Assembly (NCBI GenBank): GCA_015492305.1
Contig: WGFJ01000140.1
Coordinates: 287 to 64,286, forward strand
Length of the DNA: 64,000 nt
Reading direction: 5' to 3'
Source: Deltaproteobacteria bacterium
GTDB lineage: Bacteria; Desulfobacterota; GWC2-55-46; S146-80
Shown here in pieces: positions 3,716 to 64,000 of this stretch (position 1 is the stretch's first letter; each line of letters starts with the position of its first letter). The translations under genes and the position numbers were made by a program. A model generated the notes under the pieces. It was not told where the DNA came from. It saw only the letters and a program-made list of their open reading frames with translations, and did not search any database.

Positions 3716-4900
3716 ATGGAAACCCTGACGGCATTGCTCCTCATAGCCATCATCTCCTATGTGAGTAACAGGATCACCCCTGTCCTTGTGAGGCTCCCCA
3801 TAGGGGCCCAGCATGTCCTGTTTACAGGCACAGAATACCTCTTTCTCGGACTCCTCCTCGGTCCTTATCTGATAGGCTTTTTGTCGAAGGAGGTCCTTGA
3901 CCAACTCAGACCCTTTGTCAGTCTTGCCCTGGGTTGGATCGGACTCCTCTACGGTCTCCAGTTCAACTGGCGGGACATAAGGACCTTTCCCCTCATCTAC
4001 ATGCCCATAGCCTTCCTCCAGGCCCTGATAACCATGGGTATAGTCTTCATTGTCTTCTACCCTGTACTCGGTTATCTCCTTGGAGGGAACAGGCTCCTCT
4101 ATCCCCTTCTCATTGCCCTTTCCGCATCGGCCTCCCTCACCTCACCCTCTGCAATTGCGGTCCTTCACAGGAGGGTGGAGATAAAGGAAAGGGACCTCGT
4201 CACCCTTGTCAGGTACATATCCGGCATAGATAGCCTGATAGGTATAACCATCTTCGGCCTCACCTTTGCCATCTTCCACATCACCTACGGCTACAACCAG
4301 GGACTCCTACCACTGGAGTGGTTCCTGCTCACCATCGGCCTATCCCTCTTCCTTGCCATGATCTTTAACCTCTGCCTGCTCCTCCCTTTAACGAGCAATG
4401 AGTTTCTCGCTGTAACAACGGGGATGGTGGTATTCTCCAGCGGTGTGGCCTCCTTCCTCTACCTCTCTCCCCTCTTTGTGAGCATGGTCATGGGCCTCAT
4501 CATCGCGAATACCTCTTCAAAGCGTGAGATCCTCTATGAGAACCTGGTGAGGGGAGAAAGGCCCTTCTACATCATCTTCGTGATCATAGTTGGAGGGCTA
4601 TGGACTGTCGAGCCCCTCTGGGGAGGCATAGGGGCCCTCATATACACCCTTGCCAGGGTGGCCGGGAAGTACCTTGGAGGGATATACGCTACCGCGATCT
4701 TCAAACCCCCCTTTCCCATACCCAGAGACCTTGGCCTTGCCCTGCTCTCCCAGGGAGGGGTTGCCATTGCCATAGCAGCAAGCCTCCAGCAGACATACCA
4801 GACCACCCTCACGCCCACAGTAATGACCATCATCCTCACAGGGGTCATCATAAACGAATTCCTCGGTCCCAGATACCTTATGAAGGTCCTGAGCAAATGA
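3716..4900 (+). CDS. cation:proton antiporter (Na+/H+ exchanger family)
   Basis: Polytopic membrane protein of about 12 TM segments with a CPA-family layout. Confidence 0.6.
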   Translation: METLTALLLIAIISYVSNRITPVLVRLPIGAQHVLFTGTEYLFLGLLLGPYLIGFLSKEVLDQLRPFVSLALGWIGLLYGLQFNWRDIRTFPLIYMPIAFLQALITMGIVFIVFYPVLGYLLGGNRLLYPLLIALSASASLTSPSAIAVLHRRVEIKERDLVTLVRYISGIDSLIGITIFGLTFAIFHITYGYNQGLLPLEWFLLTIGLSLFLAMIFNLCLLLPLTSNEFLAVTTGMVVFSSGVASFLYLSPLFVSMVMGLIIANTSSKREILYENLVRGERPFYIIFVIIVGGLWTVEPLWGGIGALIYTLARVAGKYLGGIYATAIFKPPFPIPRDLGLALLSQGGVAIAIAASLQQTYQTTLTPTVMTIILTGVIINEFLGPRYLMKVLSK

Positions 4901-6198
4901 AGATGGGAAGGGTCTTTATACTCATCATCCTCTTCCTCTCCATGTTCATGCTCCTCAGATTCTTCGAAAAGGGGCTTGTCAACGAGGAGGCCCTGCCCAC
5001 ACTGTCCCTTGGCTTCGTGCTGGTCTCTGCCTTCCTCTTCGGAAAGACGGTGAAGGACTACAGCCTTCCCATGGTCACCGGCTATCTGATCCTTGGTATC
5101 CTCTCAGGCCCATATGTGATGAACCTCATCTCCCATGAAACAACACAGGCCCTCAGGCTGATAGACGAGATCGCCCTGAGCCTCATAGCCCTCACAGCCG
5201 GGGGTGAATTGAGGATGAAGGAGATGAGGAACCTGTGGAAACCCCTCTTTTACATCTCCCTTGTCCTTACAGGGGTGGTTACAGCAGGGATCGCCATCTT
5301 TACCTTCCTCTTTCTCTACCTCAAGCCACTCCCCGGTGCCGAGGGTCTTCTGGTCAACCTGTTCATAGGGCTCATACTCGGGATATGGGCTGTGAACAGC
5401 TCTCCAGACATCACCATCGGGGTGATCACAGAATACAGGGCAAAGGGAAAGTTGACGGAAACCATCCTTGGTGTCACCATCCTGAAGGATATACTGGTCA
5501 TAGCCCTCTTCACCATACTCCTTTCCTTCGGTCAGAACCTCTTTACCCCTGAGAGGGGAAGCGAACCTGTCTTCCCCCTCCTGGCCAGAAAGATCCTGGG
5601 TTCCTTCCTTGCAGGGACAGGCTTTGGATGGCTGATGGCCATGTACCTCAAGAGGGTAGGTAAGGAGGTTACCCTCTTTCTCGTGGGCTCAGCCCTCTTT
5701 ATTACATCCTTTTCCCACTCCTATGGCCTGGAACCCATCCTTGTGGCCGTTGCTGCAGGCTTCTTTGTGGAGAACTTCTCAGAGGAGGGGGAATCCTTCA
5801 TAAAGGCCGTTGAAAGGGGATCCCTGCCCATCTATGCCATCTTCTTTGCCATAGCAGGGGCCTCCCTTGATATAGAGGGTTTCAGGAGGATGTGGCTTAT
5901 AGGGGCCGTGTTTGCGGCCCTCAGGGTCCTCACCATCTATGTGGGAAGCAGATTCGGGGCCTCACTAGCTGAAGCGGAAAAGGAGATAGGCCATTACACC
6001 TGGCTTGGCCTCATCTCCCAGGCAGGGGTGACCCTTGGACTTGCCATCATGGTGGAAAGGAGGTTTCCCCTGTGGGGGATGGGGTTCAAGGAGCTTGCCC
6101 TTGCCATCATCGTCTTCAACCTCCTTCTGGGTCCCTTCACCCTCCAGTATGCCCTTAAGAGGGCAGGGGAGATAGAAGGGGGTCAGCCCTCAAGATAG
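4897..6198 (+). CDS. cation:proton antiporter (Na+/H+ exchanger family), second tandem copy
   Basis: ATG at 4897 overlaps the previous stop (ATGA). Membrane protein of about 433 aa with a CPA-like layout. The ORF-track N-terminal extension from 4600 lies inside the previous gene and was discarded. Confidence 0.6.
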   Translation: MKMGRVFILIILFLSMFMLLRFFEKGLVNEEALPTLSLGFVLVSAFLFGKTVKDYSLPMVTGYLILGILSGPYVMNLISHETTQALRLIDEIALSLIALTAGGELRMKEMRNLWKPLFYISLVLTGVVTAGIAIFTFLFLYLKPLPGAEGLLVNLFIGLILGIWAVNSSPDITIGVITEYRAKGKLTETILGVTILKDILVIALFTILLSFGQNLFTPERGSEPVFPLLARKILGSFLAGTGFGWLMAMYLKRVGKEVTLFLVGSALFITSFSHSYGLEPILVAVAAGFFVENFSEEGESFIKAVERGSLPIYAIFFAIAGASLDIEGFRRMWLIGAVFAALRVLTIYVGSRFGASLAEAEKEIGHYTWLGLISQAGVTLGLAIMVERRFPLWGMGFKELALAIIVFNLLLGPFTLQYALKRAGEIEGGQPSR

Positions 6199-6911
6199 AG
6201 CCAGAACTCCCTGTTCCCCTTTGCCCCTCTCAGGGGGGACTCTACCACCCCCTTTACCCTTAGACCAAGGGACCTGGAAAAGGTCTTCAACCTCTCTATC
6301 ACCTTCCTGTGTTTCTCAGGGTCCCTGACCACTCCTCCCTTTCCCACCTCCCCCTTACCCACCTCGAACTGGGGTTTGATAAGGGCAAGGATTATCCCCC
6401 CTTTCTTCAGGAACTCCATGGCCTTCGGTATCACCTTCTCAAGGGATATGAAGGAGACATCTATGGTGATGAGGTCGACCTTCTCACCCACCTCCTCGTA
6501 ATCAAGGTACCGGATGTTCCTCCTCTCCAAGAGGATGACCCTTTCGTCCTGCCTCAGCTTCCAGTCAAGGAGACCATAGCCCACATCAACGGCATAGACC
6601 TTCCTGGCACCGAACTTGAGGAGACAATCCGTAAAACCTCCTGTGCTGGCACCGATATCCATGGCCTTCTTCCCCTTCACATCTATGGAGAAGGCCTTCA
6701 GGGCCCCTTCAAGCTTTACCCCTCCACGGCTCACATAGGGAAGGGGTTCCACGATCCTTATGTCGCTATCTTCAGGGACAAGCTTCCCTGCCTTATCCAC
6801 GGGGACACCATCAACAAGGACCCGTCCCTCAAGGATGAGGGCCCTTGCCTTCTCCCTCGTCTCTACAAGCCCCTTTTCAAGGATGAGTTTATCGAGACGC
6901 TCTTTTCCCAA
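6183..6911 (-). CDS. tlyA: TlyA family rRNA (cytidine-2'-O)-methyltransferase
   Basis: S4 RNA-binding N-terminus followed by an FtsJ-like methyltransferase domain ([14 protein letters not shown]…DVSFISL). Confidence 0.85.
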
Positions 6912-34247: not shown

Positions 34248-34822
34248 CAAAGGTTTATAAAGAGAGCATAGCCGTCAAGGAGGCCTTTTTCAAGGAGGAG
34301 ACCCACAGGATCATCGAGGTGGCAAGCCTCATAGCCGAGACCTTCACCAGAGGAAACAAACTACTCCTCATTGGAAATGGCGGAAGCGCTGCAGATGCCC
34401 AGCACATAGCCGCTGAGTTTGTAAACCGTTTCAGGATCGAGAGACCTCCACTGCCTGCCCTTGCCCTCACAACGGACACATCCATCATAACGAGTATAGG
34501 GAACGATTACGAGTTCAGACAGATCTTCGCAAAGCAGGTGAAGGCCCTTGGAAAGGAGGGAGACATCCTCATGGCCATAAGCACAAGCGGCTCCTCACCC
34601 AACATACTGGAAGCCATAAAGGCGGCAAGGAAGATGGATATAAAAGTGATCGGCCTTACAGGCAGGGATGGAGGTGAGATGGCCGGGATGGTGGATATAC
34701 CCCTTGTGGTGAGGAGTGATAACACACCAAGGATACAGGAAGTCCACATCACCGTTGGACACATCCTCTGTGAACTCGTGGATTACATCCTCTTCAAAAA
34801 GCCCCTTGAGGAGGTGGAATGA
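34232..34822 (+). CDS. gmhA: SIS-domain phosphoheptose isomerase
   Basis: GmhA-like motifs (LLIGNGGSAADAQHIAAEF…ISTSGSSPN). Start set at the ATG that has a GGAAGGAGAGG ribosome-binding site; 34214 is an alternative. Confidence 0.8.
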   Translation: MEGLVTKVYKESIAVKEAFFKEETHRIIEVASLIAETFTRGNKLLLIGNGGSAADAQHIAAEFVNRFRIERPPLPALALTTDTSIITSIGNDYEFRQIFAKQVKALGKEGDILMAISTSGSSPNILEAIKAARKMDIKVIGLTGRDGGEMAGMVDIPLVVRSDNTPRIQEVHITVGHILCELVDYILFKKPLEEVE

Positions 34823-57625: not shown

Positions 57626-57994
57626 ATGGCAGACTCTGTGAGGGTAGACAAGTGGCTCTGGGCTGCAAGGTTCTTCAAGACAAGATCCCTTGCCCAGAAG
57701 GCCTGTAATGGTGGAAAGGTGGATGTAAACGGGGTAGCAGCAAAACCCCACAAACCCGTAAGGGTGGGAGACATCGTGGAGTTTACCCTGGGTGAGTGGA
57801 GGAGGAAGGTAAGGGTCCTGAAACTCTCGGAACAACGGGGGCCTGCCCCTGTTGCAAGAGAGCTATACGAGGATATGAGCCCTCCCCCTCCAAGGAGGGA
57901 AAGGGCCTTTGCTCCACCACCTCTCCGTGAAAGGGGTTCAGGAAGACCCACCAAGAAGGAAAGGAGACAGCTGAAGAAGTTAAGAGGAAGGTGA
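57626..57994 (+). CDS. hslR: ribosome-associated heat-shock protein Hsp15 (S4 domain)
   Basis: Family N-terminus [19 protein letters not shown]… followed by a basic C-terminal tail. Confidence 0.8.
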
Positions 57995-58897
57995 GGCAGC
58001 CTTCTTCCTTGCGTCTACACCGAATCTTTCGGCGAGCTCATCGGCAAGGGCCTGTATCCTCTCTATCTCCCTCTTCCCCTCCTCGCTCTTGAAGAGATGG
58101 GCAAACCTCTTCTGTAGCTTCAGGTACTCCACAACAGGCTTCCTCTTTGCAAGTCTCTTCACATTGGTTATCTTCCCGTTTTCCATCTCATAGAGGGGGA
58201 AGAGCCCGGTCTCCACAACGAGCTTTGCGATCTTTATGGTAAGGGCAGGGTCGCTCCCCCACCCCAGGGGACAGGGCACATAGAGGTGGATATACTTGGG
58301 CCCCCTGATGGAGAGGGCCTTCTTCACCTTCCTCTGAAGGTCCTGGGGATAGCCCACAGATGCTGTGGCCACATACGGGATGTGATGGGCCGCCGCTATG
58401 GCAGGCATGTCCTTCTTGTTGGTCCTGTTGCCCCATGATTGCTTACCGGCAGGGCTTGTTGTGGTATGGGCATCGAGCGGTGTAAGCCCGCTCCTCTGGA
58501 CACCTGTGTTCATGTAGGCCTCATTGTCGTAGCATATGTAGAGGACATTGTCCCCCCTCTCGAGCATACCGCTCAAGGCCTGAAGACCTATATCGGCCGT
58601 TCCACCATCCCCACCCTGGGCTATGATATTGATATCCTCTTTACCCATGGCCTTCAGGGCTGCAGCAACACCTGATGCCACGGCTGCTGCATTCTCAAAG
58701 AGGGAGTGTATCCATGGTATCTCCCATGATGACTGGGGATACCTTGAAGAGAAGACCTCAAGGCACCCTGTAGCACAGGTGGCTATCGTCTTTGGACCTG
58801 CTGCATTCAGCACAAGCCTTGCACCAAGGGCCTCCCCGCAGCCTGTACAGGCCGTGTGACCCGGTGCAAAGAGGTTCTGGTTGTAAAGGTTACGCAT
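57980..58897 (-). CDS. porB: pyruvate:ferredoxin oxidoreductase beta subunit (TPP-binding)
   Basis: TPP motif GDGG…N. Sits 3' of porA. Confidence 0.9.
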
Positions 58898-60068
58898 ATC
58901 TCCTTCCCTCCACTTCTTCTTTCAGATCCAGGAAGACAGGCTCCATCGTATCCACCTCATACAGGGAAAGGGCCTGTCTCACCGTTCCCTCGTTCACCTC
59001 CCTGCCGCCAAGGCCAGCCACAAACCCCTTGACCTTTGGGGCCTTTTCGAGGCCATAGAGGGCCTCCTTCACATCTGCCGCAAGTCCCCCTGTAGAGCCA
59101 AGGGATATATCCTTCTCGATCACGATCACCCCTTCCATACCTTTGAGGGCCTCCCTCACAGCCTCCTTGGGGAAGGGCCTGTAAGACCTTACCTTCAGGG
59201 CCCCTACCTTCCGTCCTTCCTTCCTGAGTCTGTCCACCGTATCCTTTATCACCCCCACAGCGGTACCCATGGATACGATGGCTATATCTGCATCGTCGAG
59301 TCTGTAAGGCTCTATCAGCCCTCCAGAGTACCTGCCGAAGACGGAGGAGAACTCCTCTGCCACCTCTTCGATGACCCCCTTTGCCCTCTCCATGGCCATC
59401 TGGATCTGGTACCTTGTCTCCATGTAGCCCTCCGGGCCCATGAGATAGCCAAAGGTAAGGGGGTTTTCGGGGGTGAGGTAGTGCTGGGGTTTATAGGGCG
59501 GGAGGAAACGATCCACCTCCTCCTGGGAGGGTATATCAACGGGCTCTATGGAATGGGTGATCAGGAACCCATCCATGCAGACCATAACAGGGAGCATGAT
59601 ATCCTCCCTCTCTGCTATCCTGTAGGCCTGTATGTGCATGTCACAGGCCTCCTGGTTGTCCTCGGCATACAGCTGGATCCATCCTGTATCCCTTGCAGCC
59701 ATGGAGTCCTGGTAGTCGTTCCAGATGTTTATGGGTGCGGAGACAGCCCTGTTCACCCCGCCAAGGACAACAGGGAGCCTGAGGCCTGCAATGTTGTAGA
59801 GGACCTCAACCATGAGGAGCATCCCCTGGGATGTGGTGGCTGTATATGTCCTTGCCCCTGTTGCACTTGCCCCGAGGACAACAGAGGCTGCGGAGTGTTC
59901 ACTCTCCACATTCACATACTCGGCCTTCAGTTCCCCATCGGCCACCATCTTTGCAAGGGCTTCCACTATGTGGGTCTGGGGTGTTATAGGATAGGCGGCT
60001 ACCACAAGGGGCCTGCACAGCTTCACCACCTCTGCAACGGCCTTCGAACCTTCAATGGCCTTTAGCAT
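58890..60068 (-). CDS. porA: pyruvate:ferredoxin oxidoreductase alpha subunit
   Basis: PorA-like N-terminus (…YPITPQT…SEHSAAS…). Confidence 0.9.
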
Positions 60069-60069
60069 C

Positions 60070-60333
60070 TCACACCTCCTCTCTCACCATCTCTATGTCA
60101 TTGACAGGGCATTCCTCAGCACATATACCACACCCCTTACAGTAATCCGGGTCTGCCTGATAGGTTGCCTCCTTCCCCTTACCCGATCCGGAGACACAAC
60201 CCTCGGGACAGAAGATGACACAGTTGTTGCACCCTATACATTTGTCGTGGAGGTATTTGGGCCAGAAGACCCTCCAGCTTCCTGTCTTGTTCTCCCTGCT
60301 TGTGCCAGGTATGGCAAAGACATTGAGCTCCAT
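60070..60333 (-). CDS. porD: pyruvate:ferredoxin oxidoreductase delta subunit (2x[4Fe-4S] ferredoxin)
   Basis: Two CxxCxxCxxxCP motifs in 87 aa. Confidence 0.9.
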   Translation of the reverse strand: MELNVFAIPGTSRENKTGSWRVFWPKYLHDKCIGCNNCVIFCPEGCVSGSGKGKEATYQADPDYCKGCGICAEECPVNDIEMVREEV

Positions 60334-60336
60334 GTT

Positions 60337-60876
60337 TCACCCCTTCATCCTTTTATATGCCTCCTCTGCTGCCTTTATGTTCTTTTCGGCAAGAGGAGGA
60401 GGAAACCTCTCCATGATGCCCTTCTTTATGCCATCAAGGCTCACAACACCGGTTGCACCTGCGAAGGCACCCAGAAGGGTCGTATTCGGTATGGGCCTTC
60501 CAAGGATCTCGAGGGCTATGGTGGTGGCCGGGATGGTAAGGACCTTGAAGCCATTGCCTATGTGGAGTTCCTGAGGGGCCTTTTCTGTATTCACTATGAC
60601 CATCCCCCCCTCTTTGAGGCCCTTAAGGACATCCACACCCTGGAAGAGGGTGGGGTCCTGGATGATGAGGTAGTCAGGGGTGTAGACCTGCGTCTTCGAT
60701 CTCACCTTGCCATCACTTATCTTCACATAGGCCTCAACAGGGGCCCCCATCCTCTCTGAACCAAAACTGGGAAAGGCTTGGGAGTATTTTCCATCGCAGA
60801 AGGCAGCCACTGCAAGGAGCTCTGCAGCGGTAACAACCCCCTGCCCCCCCCTTCCATGGATCCTTATCTCCTTCAT
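60337..60876 (-). CDS. porG: pyruvate:ferredoxin oxidoreductase gamma subunit
   Basis: Start set at MKEIRIHGRGGQGVV, the typical gamma-subunit N-terminus, with a GGAGGAG ribosome-binding site. Confidence 0.85.
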   Translation of the reverse strand: MKEIRIHGRGGQGVVTAAELLAVAAFCDGKYSQAFPSFGSERMGAPVEAYVKISDGKVRSKTQVYTPDYLIIQDPTLFQGVDVLKGLKEGGMVIVNTEKAPQELHIGNGFKVLTIPATTIALEILGRPIPNTTLLGAFAGATGVVSLDGIKKGIMERFPPPLAEKNIKAAEEAYKRMKG

Positions 60877-60943: not shown

Positions 60944-61717
60944 TTGAAGCCATCCAGTCCCTCTGGCGGGTTGACCATCAGGGGTCCTTATGCTACAATC
61001 CCCGTCGTGTTCACCTTCCGGATCGCATCAACAGACAGGGAGAAGGAAGAGATATACAGGCTCAGGTACCAGGTGTATTGCCTTGAGTGCGGATACGAAT
61101 CGCCCGAGGACTACCCTGATGGCCTGGAGACCGACGAATATGATAGATACTCTGTCCATTTCCTTGCCGTTGATGGTGATCAGAATGTCGTTGGCACTGT
61201 AAGGCTCATCCTCCATTCGGAACTCGGCTTCCCCATAGAGAAGCACTGCAGGTTCCATGTGGATGTTTCAAAGATCCCCCACAACACCCTTGCAGAGATA
61301 TCGCGTCTTGCCATCAGCAAGATGTACAGAAGAAGGGCCTACGACAGACTCTACGGGGAGAGTGAACTCCACATGAAGAAACCCAACCTCTATGAGAGGA
61401 GGCACCGCCACGAAATCCTGCTTGGCCTTTTGAAGGTCATGTACAGGGAGAGCAAGTGGCTCGGCCTTACCCACTGGTATGCCGTAATGGAGGATAGTCT
61501 CTTTGAGCTGCTCAAGCGCTACGGCTTCCTCTTCAATCGCATAGGGGAGAAGGTGGATTACCACGGCATAAGGGCCCCCTATGTGGCAAGGATAGGGAAC
61601 ATAGAGAGCCTCATAGCAAGGACAAGACCAGAGCTCTTCCAGTTCTTCACCGACTGGAAGAGGCTTATCACCATCAACTCGGAGGATATACCCCCCTTGA
61701 GGAATACCTTCAAATAA
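60944..61717 (+). CDS. GNAT-like N-acyl amino acid synthase / PEP-CTERM-exosortase-system-associated acyltransferase family
   Basis: Family-typical N-terminus (FRIASTDREKEEIYRLRYQVYCLECGY…DEYD…FLAV). True start uncertain: the TTG at 60944 or the GTG at 61007, which lies just downstream of the predicted promoter. Confidence 0.55.
   Translation: MKPSSPSGGLTIRGPYATIPVVFTFRIASTDREKEEIYRLRYQVYCLECGYESPEDYPDGLETDEYDRYSVHFLAVDGDQNVVGTVRLILHSELGFPIEKHCRFHVDVSKIPHNTLAEISRLAISKMYRRRAYDRLYGESELHMKKPNLYERRHRHEILLGLLKVMYRESKWLGLTHWYAVMEDSLFELLKRYGFLFNRIGEKVDYHGIRAPYVARIGNIESLIARTRPELFQFFTDWKRLITINSEDIPPLRNTFK
60971..60999 (+). promoter_or_regulatory. putative divergent sigma70-like promoter (TTGACC-17-TACAAT) for the acyltransferase gene
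   Basis: Near-consensus hexamers with an exact 17-nt spacer. Lies inside the ORF-track N-terminal extension of the next gene. Confidence 0.4.
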
Positions 61718-61810
61718 AGGATGGATCCCTTCCCTTTAACCCTTGAAGAAACCTATTCTTTATGGTATCTTCCTTCCATTCAGGAAAATTTCCCATGGTA
61801 AGGACCCATC

Positions 61811-62449
61811 ATGGCTTCGGTTAAGAAACCTGTAAAGGTCGTTGTGGCCCTGAGTAATGACCTCTTAAACGAAGGGATATGCAGACTGCTCTCCGATGCC
61901 GATGACATCGAAACACAGGTGCTCAAATACGGTTCCTCCCCTTCACACCTCTTTGAGAAATCTCCCCCTGATCTCATCCTTGTCGACTTCATCACCCTCT
62001 TCAACACCTTCTACGAGGTGAGGGACATAAACTGGAAGGGTAGCTTTATCCTTATAGATACTGCCTGCGGGGAGGAGAACATAGTCTCTGCCCTCCTCAG
62101 GTTCAGGCTTGCAGGTATACTAAAGGGAGATACCACCCCGGAGATGCTCAAGAAGTGCATAAGGGTCGTATCTAAGGGGGAGGTATGGATGGACAACAAG
62201 ACCATAGGTGATATACTAAAGGGGCTTTCAACAGGTGGTCCAAAGCCTTATGTCACCCAGAAGCTCTCCCACAGGGAGCGGGAGATAGTGTCCCTTGTAA
62301 GCCAGGGCTACAGGAACAAGGAGATAAGCGCAAAGCTCGGGATAAGCGAACAGACAGTGAAGTCCCATCTCTACAAGATATTTCAGAAGCTGAACATCCA
62401 GAACAGGGCCCAGTTGATCGTCTACGCCATGAAGCACAACCTCCTTTAG
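61811..62449 (+). CDS. LuxR-family transcriptional regulator with N-terminal receiver-like domain (EpsA-like)
   Basis: C-terminal GerE/LuxR helix-turn-helix (LSHREREIVSLVSQGYRNKEISAKLGISEQTVKSHL). The receiver-like N-terminus lacks a clear phosphorylation signature. Confidence 0.75.
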   Translation: MASVKKPVKVVVALSNDLLNEGICRLLSDADDIETQVLKYGSSPSHLFEKSPPDLILVDFITLFNTFYEVRDINWKGSFILIDTACGEENIVSALLRFRLAGILKGDTTPEMLKKCIRVVSKGEVWMDNKTIGDILKGLSTGGPKPYVTQKLSHREREIVSLVSQGYRNKEISAKLGISEQTVKSHLYKIFQKLNIQNRAQLIVYAMKHNLL

Positions 62450-62536
62450 ACCCTGCCACTCATGGATTAGCCCCCTCTATCTAACACTAAAGTTTTAACA
62501 CTTTTTACAAAAATATCCTCCCCTTTAGTTTAACTC

Positions 62537-62551
62537 TTTACAGTCTGTAAA
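62537..62551. promoter_or_regulatory. 15-bp perfect palindrome TTTACAGtCTGTAAA upstream of the TPR lipoprotein gene
   Basis: A perfect inverted repeat in the AT-rich 200-bp leader, suggesting an operator for a dimeric regulator. The LuxR-type regulator encoded immediately upstream is a candidate. Confidence 0.35.
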
Positions 62552-62652
62552 TTTAACCCCCTCGATTAGCAAAATTCTATCCCCTTGGTGATTGATAGGT
62601 CCCTGCCTTTTCCCTATAGTTTTATCTAAAAATCGAAAAAGGCGGTGAAGAG

Positions 62653-64000
62653 ATGTCCAGGCTGGTAGTGGTATCACTGCTCCTCCTTTCCATCCTTGGC
62701 TGCGGTAAGGATACATCCGTAGAGGCTGAAAAGCACTTCAAGAGGGCCACAGAATATCAGCAAGAAGGCAATCTGAGGGGTGCATTCATAGAGCTAAAGA
62801 ACGCCGTGGATCTCGCACCTGATCGGGTGGACTACAGGAAGGAGCTTGCCCTTGTCTACTACAAGCTCGGACGGTATGAATCGGCCCTCAAGGAGTTTGA
62901 GGCCGTCCTCAAGGAAGACCCTGCCTCAAAGGATTCCCTCCTTTACATCAGCAGGATATACCTTGAGAAAGGCCAGTTCGACAAGGCCCTTGAATCTGCC
63001 CAGAGGCTCCTCGATGCAGGGGGGCCATCAAGAGAGGCCCTCTATGTAATGGCCTCTGCACGGATGGGCAAAGGGGACCTCCAGAAGGCAAAGAAGATGT
63101 ACTTGAAGATCCTTGAGATGGAGCCCAGTGACAGTAAGGCCCTCTTGGGGCTTGCCAGGGTCTACACAGAAGAGGGGAACTACGAGGAGGCGGAAAGGCA
63201 GATCAAGAGGGCAAAGGAAGGTGGAGAGTCCATCGATATCCTCTACGCCGAGGCAGAGCTTGAGGCCAGGCGCTCAAGGTACAAGGAGGCTGCAGAGATA
63301 CTCAAGAGGATCCTGGAGATGGACCCCGATCAGCCAAGGGCCTATATACTGCTCACCACAGCCTATCTTGGCCTTAAGGACTTTGAGAAGGCCAAGGAGG
63401 AGGCTGAGGAACTCATCAAGAGATATCCCAAAAGGCCAGAAGGTTATTACTTCAAAGGCCTCTCCCTCCTTTCAGGAACCAACAGGGTAAAGGAGGCCAT
63501 CGAGTACCTTCAGAAGGCAACCACCATCTATCCTGGATACCTTCTTGCCCATTACTTCCTTGCCCTTGCCCACTACAAGGATCGCAACTACGAACAGGCC
63601 ATAAGCGAACTCCAGATGGTCCTCAACATAGATCCCAACTTCCACAGGGCCCGCTTACCCCTTGCCATCCTCTACCTCACAAAGGGGTATCTCGACGATG
63701 CCCTCAGGGAGGCGGGAAGGGCCGTTGAAAAGGACCCCAAGAATCCCCTTGCCCACAATATCCTTGGAACAGCCTACATCATGAAGGGGGAACACGACAG
63801 GGGGCTTGAAGAGTTCAAAAAGGCCCTTGACCTGGACCCGGACTTCACCGACACCTACGCAAGGCTTGGTGGTTACTACCTCACAACGGGTAACATCGAG
63901 GAGGCCATAAAGGAGTACAGGGCAGCCCTGAAGATAGATCCAAGACTCCTCAACATAAGGATCTTCCTCGGAATGGCCCACATGAGGAAGGGAGAGTACG
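62653..64000 (+). CDS. TPR-repeat lipoprotein (PrsT-like, PEP-CTERM system type), 5' part; continues beyond the window
   Basis: Lipoprotein signal (LLLSILGCGKD) followed by uninterrupted TPR repeats to the window edge, with no stop codon. Confidence 0.7.
   Translation, partial: MSRLVVVSLLLLSILGCGKDTSVEAEKHFKRATEYQQEGNLRGAFIELKNAVDLAPDRVDYRKELALVYYKLGRYESALKEFEAVLKEDPASKDSLLYISRIYLEKGQFDKALESAQRLLDAGGPSREALYVMASARMGKGDLQKAKKMYLKILEMEPSDSKALLGLARVYTEEGNYEEAERQIKRAKEGGESIDILYAEAELEARRSRYKEAAEILKRILEMDPDQPRAYILLTTAYLGLKDFEKAKEEAEELIKRYPKRPEGYYFKGLSLLSGTNRVKEAIEYLQKATTIYPGYLLAHYFLALAHYKDRNYEQAISELQMVLNIDPNFHRARLPLAILYLTKGYLDDALREAGRAVEKDPKNPLAHNILGTAYIMKGEHDRGLEEFKKALDLDPDFTDTYARLGGYYLTTGNIEEAIKEYRAALKIDPRLLNIRIFLGMAHMRKGEY

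What the first reader, a model, noticed from the sequence alone, without database searches (positions are those of the whole stretch)
60944..64000. Start of a PEP-CTERM/exosortase-type locus: acyltransferase, EpsA-like LuxR regulator and PrsT-like TPR lipoprotein
The gene triad is an acyl-homoserine-lactone-synthase-like GNAT (FRIASTDREKEEIYRLRYQVYCLECGY), a LuxR-helix-turn-helix regulator with a degenerate receiver domain, and a large TPR lipoprotein. This matches the conserved regulatory head of PEP-CTERM/exosortase exopolysaccharide systems, so the exosortase and its PEP-CTERM targets probably lie just beyond the window. A perfect palindrome TTTACAGtCTGTAAA in the lipoprotein leader is a candidate operator, possibly for the LuxR-type regulator.
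Basis: partly seen in the sequence, partly recalled or inferred. Interest (0 to 1): 0.5.

Follow-up and report, generated by a model that had tools for sequence, protein, structure and literature searches.

The report
Start of an exopolysaccharide gene cluster
The last 3 kb of the window is the start of a known kind of slime (exopolysaccharide) gene cluster: a lipid-signal-type acyltransferase, a biofilm-type regulator and a large lipoprotein. It is mostly ordinary, but the regulator belongs to an unnamed family, and no exosortase gene lies in the window or in the roughly 22 kb beyond it.

Summary
The three genes are real. The acyltransferase (60971-61717) passes TIGR03694, the PEP-CTERM/exosortase-associated N-acyl amino acid synthase family (221 vs 112 bits). 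The TPR lipoprotein (62653->64000) is PrsT: the fragment scores 288.5 (cut-off 312), and the full 924-aa protein on a 99.4%-identical contig scores 619. The regulator (61811-62449) is not EpsA (56 vs 170 bits, HTH only). It is a NarL/VpsT/CsgD-like LuxR-family protein with a receiver-fold domain that has lost the acidic pair (DD to SN) and the conserved Lys.

About 22 kb downstream on that sibling contig holds 15 more tightly packed same-strand genes after prsT. They are XrtA-type EPS genes: EpsB_2, exporter, chain-length determinant, tyrosine kinase, outer-membrane protein, ATPase, GT4 transferases, flippase and polymerase. There is no exosortase and no PEP-CTERM protein there or in the window.

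The regulator-prsT pair recurs in all four closest orthologous loci, which lack the acyltransferase. One acyltransferase homologue sits upstream of a sigma-54 two-component pair and PrsT instead.

The palindrome (62537-62551) lies upstream of a conserved sigma-70 prsT promoter, not in a leader. It is not significant by chance (P about 0.07) and is not conserved in relatives.

Verdict: a new member or minor variant of a known system, of low to moderate interest.

The parts
60337..60876 (-). Left boundary: pyruvate:ferredoxin oxidoreductase gamma subunit (PF01558), the last gene of a divergent porGDAB-type operon. It is not part of the locus.
   Evidence: Gene call and Pfam in L001, which is 99.4% identical to the window. 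A promoter-like site on the - strand lies at 60941-60913.
60971..61717 (+). [quoted passage not shown] The start is uncertain: TTG 60944, TTG 60971 (as called elsewhere) or GTG 61004, which matches where the homologues and the HMM begin.
   Evidence: TIGR03694 220.9 bits vs cut-off 111.95. Pfam Acetyltransf_5, FeeM and Autoind_synth. AHL synthase RpaI at E=8e-5 in the PDB. [quoted passage not shown]
61811..62449 (+). LuxR/GerE-family transcription regulator with an atypical (pseudo-)receiver domain, like VpsT, CsgD and NarL. It is probably co-transcribed with the acyltransferase: the gap is 93 bp and the scan found no + strand promoter-like or terminator-like site in it.
   Evidence: GerE 74.7 bits. 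NarL model 78 vs 250, CsgD 71 vs 250, EpsA 56 vs 170. PDB profile hits VraR, NarL and VpsT. AF2 pLDDT 86, and Foldseek finds LiaR, NarL, RcsB and VpsT. Family signature FSN / D59 / DTxCG / GE[VI]W[IVLM]D[KN]. Promoter and terminator scan.
62537..62551 (.). Perfect 7-1-7 palindrome TTTACAGtCTGTAAA, centred about 83 bp upstream of the predicted prsT transcription start. It is a candidate activator or operator site, unproven.
   Evidence: Unique in the window and in L012. Chance probability in this intergenic region about 0.075. Absent from the orthologous regions in L013, L014, L020 and L022. No meaningful RNA hairpin: -1.8 kcal/mol, z = 0.
62592..62620 (+). Predicted sigma-70 promoter of prsT and probably of the whole operon of at least 16 genes and about 20 kb: -35 TTGATA, 17-bp spacer, -10 TATAGT. 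The GATTG context is shared with relatives.
   Evidence: Found independently by the consensus scan. The same arrangement, GATTG(-35)-17 bp-TATAAT, occurs upstream of prsT in L014, L020 and L022. No sigma-54 -24/-12 match lies in any of the three intergenic regions.
62653..64000 (+). [quoted passage not shown] These are the first 449 of 924 codons; the gene is cut by the window end.
   Evidence: TIGR02917 scores 288.5 bits on model positions 7-446 of 899, cut-off 312.2. The full-length protein in L001 scores 619.1 bits. The lipobox ILGC is read from the sequence.

Best explanation
The segment 60971-64000 is the 5' end of an XrtA/PEP-CTERM-type exopolysaccharide (EPS, floc or biofilm matrix) locus in an uncultured bacterium. 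It has three parts. (a) A TIGR03694 GNAT most likely makes long-chain N-acyl amino acids from acyl-ACP; the activity is inferred from the family. (b) A LuxR-family regulator is probably co-transcribed with it. Its receiver-like domain can probably no longer be phosphorylated in the usual Mg2+-dependent way (DD to SN, Lys lost). It is therefore most likely controlled, like VpsT or CsgD, by its abundance, by a ligand or by dimerisation. (c) prsT is the first gene of an operon of at least 16 genes and about 20 kb for sugar priming, polymerisation, chain-length control, tyrosine kinase and export. I propose that the regulator binds the 203-bp region upstream of prsT and activates the sigma-70 promoter at 62592-62620, switching on the whole EPS operon. 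The 15-bp palindrome at about -83 is one possible binding site. Shown here: the gene identities, the operon layout downstream, the conserved regulator-prsT adjacency, the conserved promoter and the degenerate receiver. Inferred: the enzyme product, the regulator's target and mode of control, and the role of the palindrome.
For: Family scores above curated cut-offs: TIGR03694 221/112, and on the 99.4%-identical contig PrsT 619/312, EpsB_2 478/393, exporter 240/180, chain-length determinant 356/279 and outer-membrane protein TIGR03016 121/91. The 16 genes from prsT onward are on one strand, with gaps of at most 46 nt or overlaps. A 50-55% identical regulator sits directly upstream of a PrsT scoring 520-579 bits in L013 and L020. 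In L014 and L022 the same arrangement holds, with a large TPR gene followed by the same export genes. In L021 the orthologue sits next to a PrsR-like sigma-54 activator and a PEP-CTERM protein. The prsT promoter architecture is shared by the window, L014, L020 and L022. The regulator has a receiver fold plus HTH, with S15/N16 replacing the acidic pair in nearly all of 35 relatives. [quoted passage not shown] Disruption of the PEP-CTERM-system NAS abolishes the polysaccharide band in Methylomonas LW13 (PMC11072679). NAS genes are linked to PEP-CTERM/exosortase loci (Craig et al. 2011, as cited in PMC4897644 and PMC7293339).
Against: No exosortase and no PEP-CTERM substrate was found in the 64-kb window or in the ~22 kb beyond it. 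Membership of a complete exosortase system is therefore unproven for this genome. TIGR03018 (221/231), TIGR03015 (293/324), the stp1/stp2-like glycosyltransferases and PEP_O_lig_1 (92/188) all fall below their cut-offs. More distant members of the regulator family (44-52% identical) sit in a different, purely regulatory neighbourhood without PrsT. Adjacency is the only evidence that the regulator controls prsT. The phospho-acceptor Asp (D59) and T84 are conserved, so phosphorylation is not excluded.
Confidence: 0.6

Rival explanations
1. The acyltransferase and the LuxR-type protein form a LuxI/LuxR-like signal-receptor pair. The N-acyl amino acid would be a diffusible signal sensed by the regulator's pseudo-receiver domain, making EPS production dependent on cell density.
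For: The two genes are adjacent and probably co-transcribed. The enzyme resembles AHL synthases (Pfam Autoind_synth 29.7 bits; RpaI E=8e-5). The regulator's receiver has lost its phosphorylation machinery but keeps invariant W126, D128 and C86, which could line a ligand site.
Against: The adjacency is seen only in this species. None of the five closest regulator orthologue loci has the enzyme nearby. Neither of the two closest enzyme homologues examined has this regulator, and one is paired with a sigma-54 two-component system instead. The regulator has no autoinducer-binding domain. The NCBIfam AHL synthase models score 19-21 against cut-offs of 250-292.
Confidence: 0.07
2. The palindrome TTTACAGtCTGTAAA is the operator or activator site of the adjacent LuxR-type regulator.
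For: GerE/NarL-type HTH proteins bind DNA as dimers at inverted repeats (established knowledge). The site is perfect and unique in 86 kb. It lies where class I activators bind, about -83. Relatives each carry their own AT-rich palindromes upstream of prsT: TACTAAAGTAGTA in L014, L020 and L022, and AAAGTATTAATACTTT in L013. The window protein differs from 30 of 35 relatives at two recognition-helix positions, S185 and K189. That could go with a changed site.
Against: Such a palindrome arises by chance in 7.5% of randomized versions of the intergenic region. The sequence is not conserved in any orthologous intergenic region. The spacing of the TAC/GTA cores differs from the relatives' palindrome (read). 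Variation within the species is too low to test (one SNP in the region).
Confidence: 0.25
3. The regulator is an ordinary phosphorylation-dependent NarL-family response regulator, served by a histidine kinase encoded elsewhere.
For: It aligns over its full length to NarL and VraR. The phospho-acceptor Asp (D59) is invariant and T84 nearly so. More distant family members sit among histidine kinases.
Against: The Mg2+-binding acidic pair is replaced by Ser-Asn: N16 in 35 of 35 and S15 in 32 of 35. The conserved Lys position is variable. The Pfam Response_reg model does not hit the window protein or any listed family member. No kinase gene is adjacent in the six closest loci.
Confidence: 0.15
4. 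The regulator is an EpsA orthologue of the XrtB (Methylobacillus-type) system.
For: EpsA has a C-terminal LuxR HTH and sits next to EPS/exosortase operons, and TIGR03020 gives a hit.
Against: The hit scores 56.1 bits against a cut-off of 170 and covers only the 58-residue HTH (model 188-245 of 247). All neighbouring markers are XrtA-type (TIGR02917, 03013, 03027, 03007), while the XrtB-type models EpsE, EpsF, EpsG and EpsL score far below their cut-offs.
Confidence: 0.03

Closest known systems
XrtA/PEP-CTERM exopolysaccharide loci (Haft et al. 2006, PMC1569441; floc-formation loci of Zoogloea and Aquincola, PMC9850573)
   Same: PrsT, the EpsB_2 priming transferase, the exporter, the chain-length determinant, the TIGR03016 outer-membrane protein, an ATPase, GT4 transferases, and Wzx- and Wzy-like genes, all in one long same-strand cluster.
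   Different: No XrtA, EpsI, PEP-CTERM protein or PrsK/PrsR in the 86 kb seen. The ATPase and tyrosine kinase score just under their cut-offs. prsT has a sigma-70-type promoter, with no sigma-54 box in the three intergenic regions. A LuxR-type regulator precedes prsT.
[quoted passage not shown]
   Same: The score is well above the family cut-off, Pfam FeeM hits, and the gene lies at the edge of a PEP-CTERM-type EPS locus.
   Different: The protein is about 10-20 residues longer at each end than most homologues, which cover 88% of it. The product and acyl/amino-acid specificity are unknown. Here it is followed by a LuxR-type gene, which was not seen for the two closest homologues examined.
VpsT (Vibrio cholerae) and CsgD (E. 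coli/Salmonella): LuxR-family biofilm-matrix master regulators with atypical receiver domains
   Same: The architecture is the same: a degenerate receiver plus a GerE HTH. VpsT is a strong profile hit (E=1.6e-24) and a structural hit, and the CsgD model scores 71 bits. The gene sits at the head of an EPS operon. The family's invariant Trp126 aligns with the Trp of VpsT's c-di-GMP-binding WLTR motif.
   Different: The motif here is W-M-D-N, and W-[IVLM]-D-[KN] in the family. The Thr/Ser and the Arg are missing, and R134 is needed for c-di-GMP binding in VpsT (PMC3359988). All named NCBIfam models score below their cut-offs. The protein is only 20-27% identical to solved structures.
EpsA (TIGR03020), the XrtB/PEP-CTERM-associated LuxR-family regulator
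   Same: A LuxR HTH at the C-terminus and a position next to an exosortase-type EPS operon.
   Different: The N-terminal domain is unrelated (no match outside the HTH), the score is a third of the cut-off, and the locus is XrtA-type, not XrtB-type.

Membership tests
TIGR03694 PEP-CTERM/exosortase system-associated acyltransferase (NAS) | HMM score above the curated cut-off over the full model | tested here: met
   220.9 bits vs 111.95, model positions 7-236 of 241.
TIGR03694 PEP-CTERM/exosortase system-associated acyltransferase (NAS) | Encoded in a genome, and usually a neighbourhood, with a PEP-CTERM/exosortase system | tested here: inconclusive
   It lies next to PrsT and XrtA-type EPS genes. 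No exosortase or PEP-CTERM gene was seen in 86 kb.
TIGR03694 PEP-CTERM/exosortase system-associated acyltransferase (NAS) | Makes long-chain N-acyl amino acids | not testable with these tools
   This needs heterologous expression and LC-MS.
[quoted passage not shown] | HMM score above the cut-off of 312.2 over the ~900-residue model | tested here: met
   The window fragment scores 288.5 bits on model 7-446 and is cut by the window end. The full gene on the 99.4%-identical contig L001 scores 619.1 bits on model 7-898.
[quoted passage not shown] | Lipoprotein signal peptide | tested here: met
   MSRLVVVSLLLLSILG|C, read directly from the sequence. No dedicated predictor was run.
TIGR03020 EpsA (XrtB-associated regulator) | HMM score above the cut-off of 170, including the N-terminal domain | tested here: not met
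   56.1 bits, covering only the HTH (protein 149-206, model 188-245 of 247).
Canonical NarL/FixJ response regulator | Receiver fold followed by a GerE HTH | tested here: met
   Profile hits to VraR and NarL over the full length. AF2 model with pLDDT 86 and alternating strand-helix topology. Foldseek finds LiaR, NarL and RcsB at E of about 1e-13 to 1e-11.
Canonical NarL/FixJ response regulator | Complete phosphorylation site: acidic pair, phospho-acceptor Asp, Thr/Ser and Lys | tested here: not met
   The acidic pair is S15-N16. D59 and T84 are present. The Lys position is G106 in the window protein and variable in the family. Pfam Response_reg gives no hit.
VpsT-type c-di-GMP-binding regulators | The W[F/L/M][T/S]R motif at the start of helix 6 (motif recalled from Krasteva et al. 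2010; the role of R134 is confirmed in PMC3359988) | tested here: not met
   The window has W126-M-D-N, and the 35 family members have W-[IVLM]-D-[KN] apart from one W-V-E-R and one with Phe at the second position. Only the Trp and the hydrophobic residue match.
Complete XrtA/PEP-CTERM protein-sorting system | Exosortase XrtA (with EpsI) and PEP-CTERM substrate proteins | tested here: inconclusive
   None was found in window 1-64000: a C-terminal motif screen and an NCBIfam scan of all eight multi-TM ORFs were negative. None was found in the 16 genes downstream. The rest of the genome could not be reached. The sibling contig ends about 1.9 kb after the examined stretch, and another contig carrying the locus probably ends nearby (estimated from contig lengths). 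Relatives L013, L021 and L024 do have PEP-CTERM genes near the orthologous loci.
Complete XrtA/PEP-CTERM protein-sorting system | XrtA-type EPS markers above their cut-offs | tested here: met
   TIGR03013 478/393, TIGR03027 240/180, TIGR03007 356/279 and TIGR03016 121/91 pass. TIGR03018 221/231 and TIGR03015 293/324 are just under.
LuxI/LuxR acyl-homoserine-lactone quorum sensing | An AHL synthase family member plus a LuxR with an autoinducer-binding domain (PF03472) | tested here: not met
   NCBIfam AHL synthase models score 19-21 bits against cut-offs of 250-292. Pfam Autoind_synth passes only marginally at 29.7 vs 24, beneath the stronger FeeM and Acetyltransf_5 hits. The regulator has no autoinducer-binding domain.

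The most novel reading that the evidence does not exclude
The enzyme and the pseudo-receiver LuxR protein could form a new acyl-amino-acid signalling pair, analogous to LuxI/LuxR but with different chemistry and a receiver-fold sensor. In this lineage it would replace the sigma-54 PrsK/PrsR-type control and switch on the prsT-led EPS operon through the palindrome. A weaker version: the FSN/DTxCG/GEVWxD[KN] family is an undescribed ligand-sensing, VpsT-like master regulator of XrtA-type EPS loci.
Probability: 0.07. Interest if true: 0.65.

Novelty: new member of a known kind. Interest (0 to 1): 0.27.

Why it matters
The locus adds one more example of the already documented link between N-acyl amino acid synthases and PEP-CTERM/XrtA-type exopolysaccharide clusters. 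The useful new point is small. A well-populated but unnamed family of LuxR-type regulators exists, with more than 1000 hits at E<=1e-10 in the profile search. They have a VpsT/CsgD-like pseudo-receiver with the signature FSN, D59, DTxCG and GE[VI]W[IVLM]D[KN]. Their closest clade sits immediately upstream of prsT, or next to PEP-CTERM and PrsR-like genes. That makes a testable candidate for how XrtA-type EPS operons are controlled in lineages where no PrsK/PrsR genes flank the locus. It also suggests a curated family model could be built. It does not change what is known about exosortase systems.

Tried and rejected
1. Walking downstream to find XrtA. Two hops on the 99.4%-identical contig covered about 22 kb beyond the window without finding an exosortase. 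That contig ends about 1.9 kb further on, and another contig carrying the locus probably ends nearby, so further walking was not possible.

2. A genome-contig scan with the locus ATPase did not find this species. It returned only five distant loci (Acidobacteria, Desulfobacter), none of which has the acyltransferase or the regulator.

3. A metagenome-contig scan with the regulator alignment gave only two weak hits.

4. A screen of the window for PEP-CTERM tails and an NCBIfam scan of its multi-TM ORFs found no exosortase or substrate.

5. Phylogenetic footprinting of the prsT upstream region. The relatives share TACTAAAGTAGTA and AGTATTAC repeats. The window shares only the 8-mer ACTAAAGT, which is not significant: 27% of randomized window regions share some 8-mer with at least three relatives. 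I therefore dropped the idea of a conserved operator.

6. The palindrome as an RNA hairpin or terminator was rejected (-1.8 kcal/mol, z = 0, no T-run).

7. A sigma-54 promoter upstream of prsT, the regulator gene or the acyltransferase gene was not found.

8. Rfam and tRNA scans of the window found nothing.

9. The Craig et al. 2011 paper could not be read, so it is cited only through other papers.


Full report
OBSERVATION. The acyltransferase ORF runs 60944-61717 at its longest. Gene callers on other assemblies start it at TTG 60971, giving 248 aa. The LuxR-type ORF is 61811-62449 (212 aa). The TPR ORF starts at ATG 62653 and runs off the window end after 449 codons. Its N-terminus, MSRLVVVSLLLLSILGCGKD, is a lipoprotein-type signal. 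Upstream, on the other strand, lies a four-gene pyruvate:ferredoxin oxidoreductase cluster (the - strand genes at 57980-60876) that has nothing to do with the locus. The palindrome TTTACAGtCTGTAAA is at 62537-62551.

GENE IDENTITIES. The acyltransferase scores 220.9 bits on TIGR03694, 'PEP-CTERM/exosortase system-associated acyltransferase' (cut-off 111.95). It also hits Pfam Acetyltransf_5, FeeM (N-acyl amino acid synthase) and, weakly, Autoind_synth. Its only PDB sequence relatives are AHL synthases, at marginal E-values.

The TPR fragment scores 288.5 bits on TIGR02917 (PrsT), matching model positions 7-446 of 899 in one collinear stretch. That is under the 312.2 cut-off only because the gene is cut. 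On contig JALTQY010000027.1 (GCA_026998235.1), which is 99.4% identical to the window over 12.2 kb, the full 924-aa protein scores 619.1 bits.

The regulator is not EpsA. TIGR03020 gives 56.1 bits against a cut-off of 170 and covers only the HTH. Its best models are NarL (78 bits, full length) and CsgD (71 bits), both far under their cut-offs.

WHAT LIES BEYOND THE WINDOW. The window's own source contig appears to end about 350 bp after the window (64,347 bp). I therefore read the sibling contig. After prsT come, on the same strand and with gaps of at most 46 nt or overlaps:
- the TIGR03013 EpsB_2 priming glycosyltransferase (478/393)
- the TIGR03027 exporter (240/180)
- the TIGR03007 chain-length determinant (356/279)
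- a tyrosine autokinase (TIGR03018, 221/231)
- the TIGR03016 outer-membrane protein (121/91)
- the XrtA-associated ATPase (TIGR03015, 293/324)
- six complete glycosyltransferases and one more cut by the end of the stretch read, best hits stp1/stp2-like or generic GT4 models, all under their cut-offs
- a Wzx-type flippase
- a Wzy/PEP_O_lig_1-like polymerase.

This is a typical XrtA-type EPS operon of at least 16 genes. No exosortase and no PEP-CTERM protein occurs in these ~22 kb. None occurs in the other 61 kb of the window either, by a C-terminal motif screen and an NCBIfam scan of all eight multi-TM ORFs. The prediction that the exosortase and its targets 'lie just beyond the window' is not borne out. 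Whether they exist elsewhere in the genome could not be tested.

THE REGULATOR. A profile of 35 family members matches VraR, NarL and VpsT in the PDB at E of 1e-28 to 1e-24. An AlphaFold2 model (pLDDT 86) has a receiver-like strand-helix domain, a flexible linker and a four-helix HTH. Foldseek retrieves LiaR, NarL, VraR, RcsB and VpsT. In the alignments the acidic pair of the receiver is replaced by Ser15-Asn16 (N16 invariant, S15 in 32 of 35). The phospho-acceptor Asp59 and Thr84 are kept, and the conserved Lys position is variable. Pfam's Response_reg model detects neither the window protein nor any listed relative. 'Degenerate receiver' is thus correct, and the closest functional analogues are the biofilm regulators VpsT and CsgD.

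The family's invariant Trp126 aligns with the Trp of VpsT's WLTR c-di-GMP motif. The rest of the motif differs: WMDN here, and W-[IVLM]-D-[KN] in the family. The Arg, whose mutation abolishes c-di-GMP binding in VpsT (PMC3359988), is missing. VpsT-like c-di-GMP binding is therefore not supported.

The family is large: 1013 proteins at E<=1e-10 among the 8000 scored candidates, and more than 100 full-length members at 40-55% identity. Sources name them only generically.

COMPARATIVE CONTEXT. The closest orthologues (50-55% identical) were examined in five loci.
- In L013, L014, L020 and L022 the regulator is followed, after a 280-330-bp intergenic region, by prsT and then the exporter, chain-length and kinase genes. 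PrsT scores 520 bits in L013 and 579 bits in L020.
- In L021 it is followed by a receiver-less PrsR-like sigma-54 activator (TIGR02915 450/503, model 111-444) and a 73-aa PEP-CTERM protein.
- None of these five loci has the acyltransferase.

More distant members (44-52% identical) sit in a different conserved neighbourhood: histidine kinase, sigma-54 regulator, PilZ-type receiver protein (a plain receiver protein in L017), sigma-70-family sigma factor, then this regulator and more kinases.

Conversely, the closest acyltransferase homologue (63%) sits alone beside thrS-infC. A 59% homologue sits between a PEP-CTERM protein gene and a histidine kinase plus sigma-54 regulator pair that precedes PrsT (575 bits) and a Bac_transf-family sugar transferase at the position of EpsB_2.

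So the regulator-prsT pair is conserved in this clade. The layout 'acyltransferase - regulator module - PrsT - sugar transferase' recurs with interchangeable regulator modules. The exact triad of the window was found only in this species.

THE INTERGENIC REGION AND THE PALINDROME. A sigma-70-type promoter (TTGATA, 17 bp, TATAGT; 62592-62620) is found by the consensus scan. It has the same architecture and GATTG context as the prsT-upstream regions of L014, L020 and L022. No sigma-54 -24/-12 element lies in any of the three intergenic regions. This agrees with the rpoN-independent prsT transcription reported in Aquincola (PMC9850573).

The palindrome is centred about 83 bp upstream of the predicted start, a plausible activator position, and not in the transcribed leader. 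Three results weaken it:
- Perfect palindromes with 7-nt arms are common. The window has 38 against about 23 expected, and the chance of one in this region is 0.075.
- The orthologous regions carry different palindromes and repeats (TACTAAAGTAGTA, AGTATTAC, AAAGTATTAATACTTT) and not this one.
- The only shared 8-mer, ACTAAAGT, is not significant (P about 0.27).

It forms no meaningful RNA hairpin. The window protein differs from most relatives at two recognition-helix positions (S185, K189). That could accompany a changed site, but this is inference. I rate the operator idea at about 0.25.

MECHANISM. I consider the following most likely. The acyltransferase and regulator are co-transcribed: the gap is 93 bp, and the scan found no + strand promoter-like or terminator-like site in it. 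The regulator acts without canonical phosphorylation and binds upstream of the sigma-70 prsT promoter. There it controls the whole operon of at least 20 kb. The acyltransferase makes long-chain N-acyl amino acids whose role in EPS or floc formation is still unknown, but it is genetically supported in Methylomonas (PMC11072679). PrsT is needed for floc formation in Aquincola (PMC9850573). Gene identities, operon layout, adjacency and promoter conservation are shown. Enzyme product, regulator target and mode of control are inferred.

NOVELTY AND VERDICT. The locus is a new member of a known kind of system, and the link between NAS genes and PEP-CTERM loci is already published. The modestly new element is the unnamed pseudo-receiver LuxR family at the head of prsT operons. 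Interest is low to moderate (0.27). The most novel reading not excluded is an acyl-amino-acid/LuxR-type signalling pair. It has little support because the adjacency is confined to one species (probability about 0.07).

Noticed in passing
window 60971-61006: A strong promoter-like site (TTGACC, 17 bp, TG-extended TACAAT; 10 of 12 matches) overlaps the annotated TTG start of the acyltransferase gene. Its homologues and the TIGR03694 model begin at the position of GTG 61004, 5 nt after the -10 box. The true start may therefore be GTG 61004 (237 aa), perhaps on a leaderless or very short-leader mRNA.
   Followed up: partly
L021 7002-8289 (ENA ERZ26661914 NODE_590): Next to an orthologue of the regulator lies a PrsR-like sigma-54 activator that lacks its receiver domain (TIGR02915 model 111-444, 450 bits vs cut-off 502.6). 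It is followed by a 73-aa PEP-CTERM protein and a PilZ protein. This hints that the pseudo-receiver LuxR protein and a receiver-less PrsR may work together.
   Followed up: no
L017, L018, L019 (regulator homologues at 6001-6640 in each): More distant members of the regulator family (44-52% identical) share another conserved neighbourhood: sensor kinase, sigma-54 response regulator, receiver protein (PilZ-linked in L018 and L019), a sigma-70-family sigma factor of 326-375 aa, the regulator, then more PAS/GAF kinases. This looks like a biofilm or c-di-GMP-related regulatory island.
   Followed up: no
window 61811-62449 (residues C86, W126, D128): The regulator family has an invariant Cys in a DTxCG motif next to the receiver active-site Thr. 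It also has an invariant Trp and a near-invariant Asp (34 of 35) in GE[VI]W[IVLM]D[KN] at the position of VpsT's c-di-GMP motif. These could mark a redox or ligand site of unknown nature.
   Followed up: partly
L014 2320-2639, L020 6640-6967, L022 2611-2924: The prsT-upstream regions of three relatives share a TACTAAAGTAGTA palindrome followed by one to three further copies of AGTATTAC/AGTATTAT, about 100-170 bp upstream of a conserved TTGTnn-17-TATAAT promoter. This is a good candidate regulator-binding array for that clade, and it is absent from the window.
   Followed up: partly
window 3716-4900 (+): A 394-aa ORF with about nine predicted transmembrane segments has no NCBIfam match at E<=1e-5. 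Its 3' end overlaps, in another frame, the longest ORF of the following CPA2-type antiporter-like gene (4600-6198).
   Followed up: no
about 22-23 kb beyond the window end (L012 ends at record position 34,282 of the 36,156-bp contig): The NCBI contig carrying the locus ends about 1.9 kb after the stretch read. An 82,982-bp contig carrying the same locus probably ends in the same area (estimated from contig lengths), inside the glycosyltransferase part of the EPS operon. This suggests a repeat or strain-variable segment there. The window's own source contig seems to end about 350 bp after the window, inside prsT.
   Followed up: no
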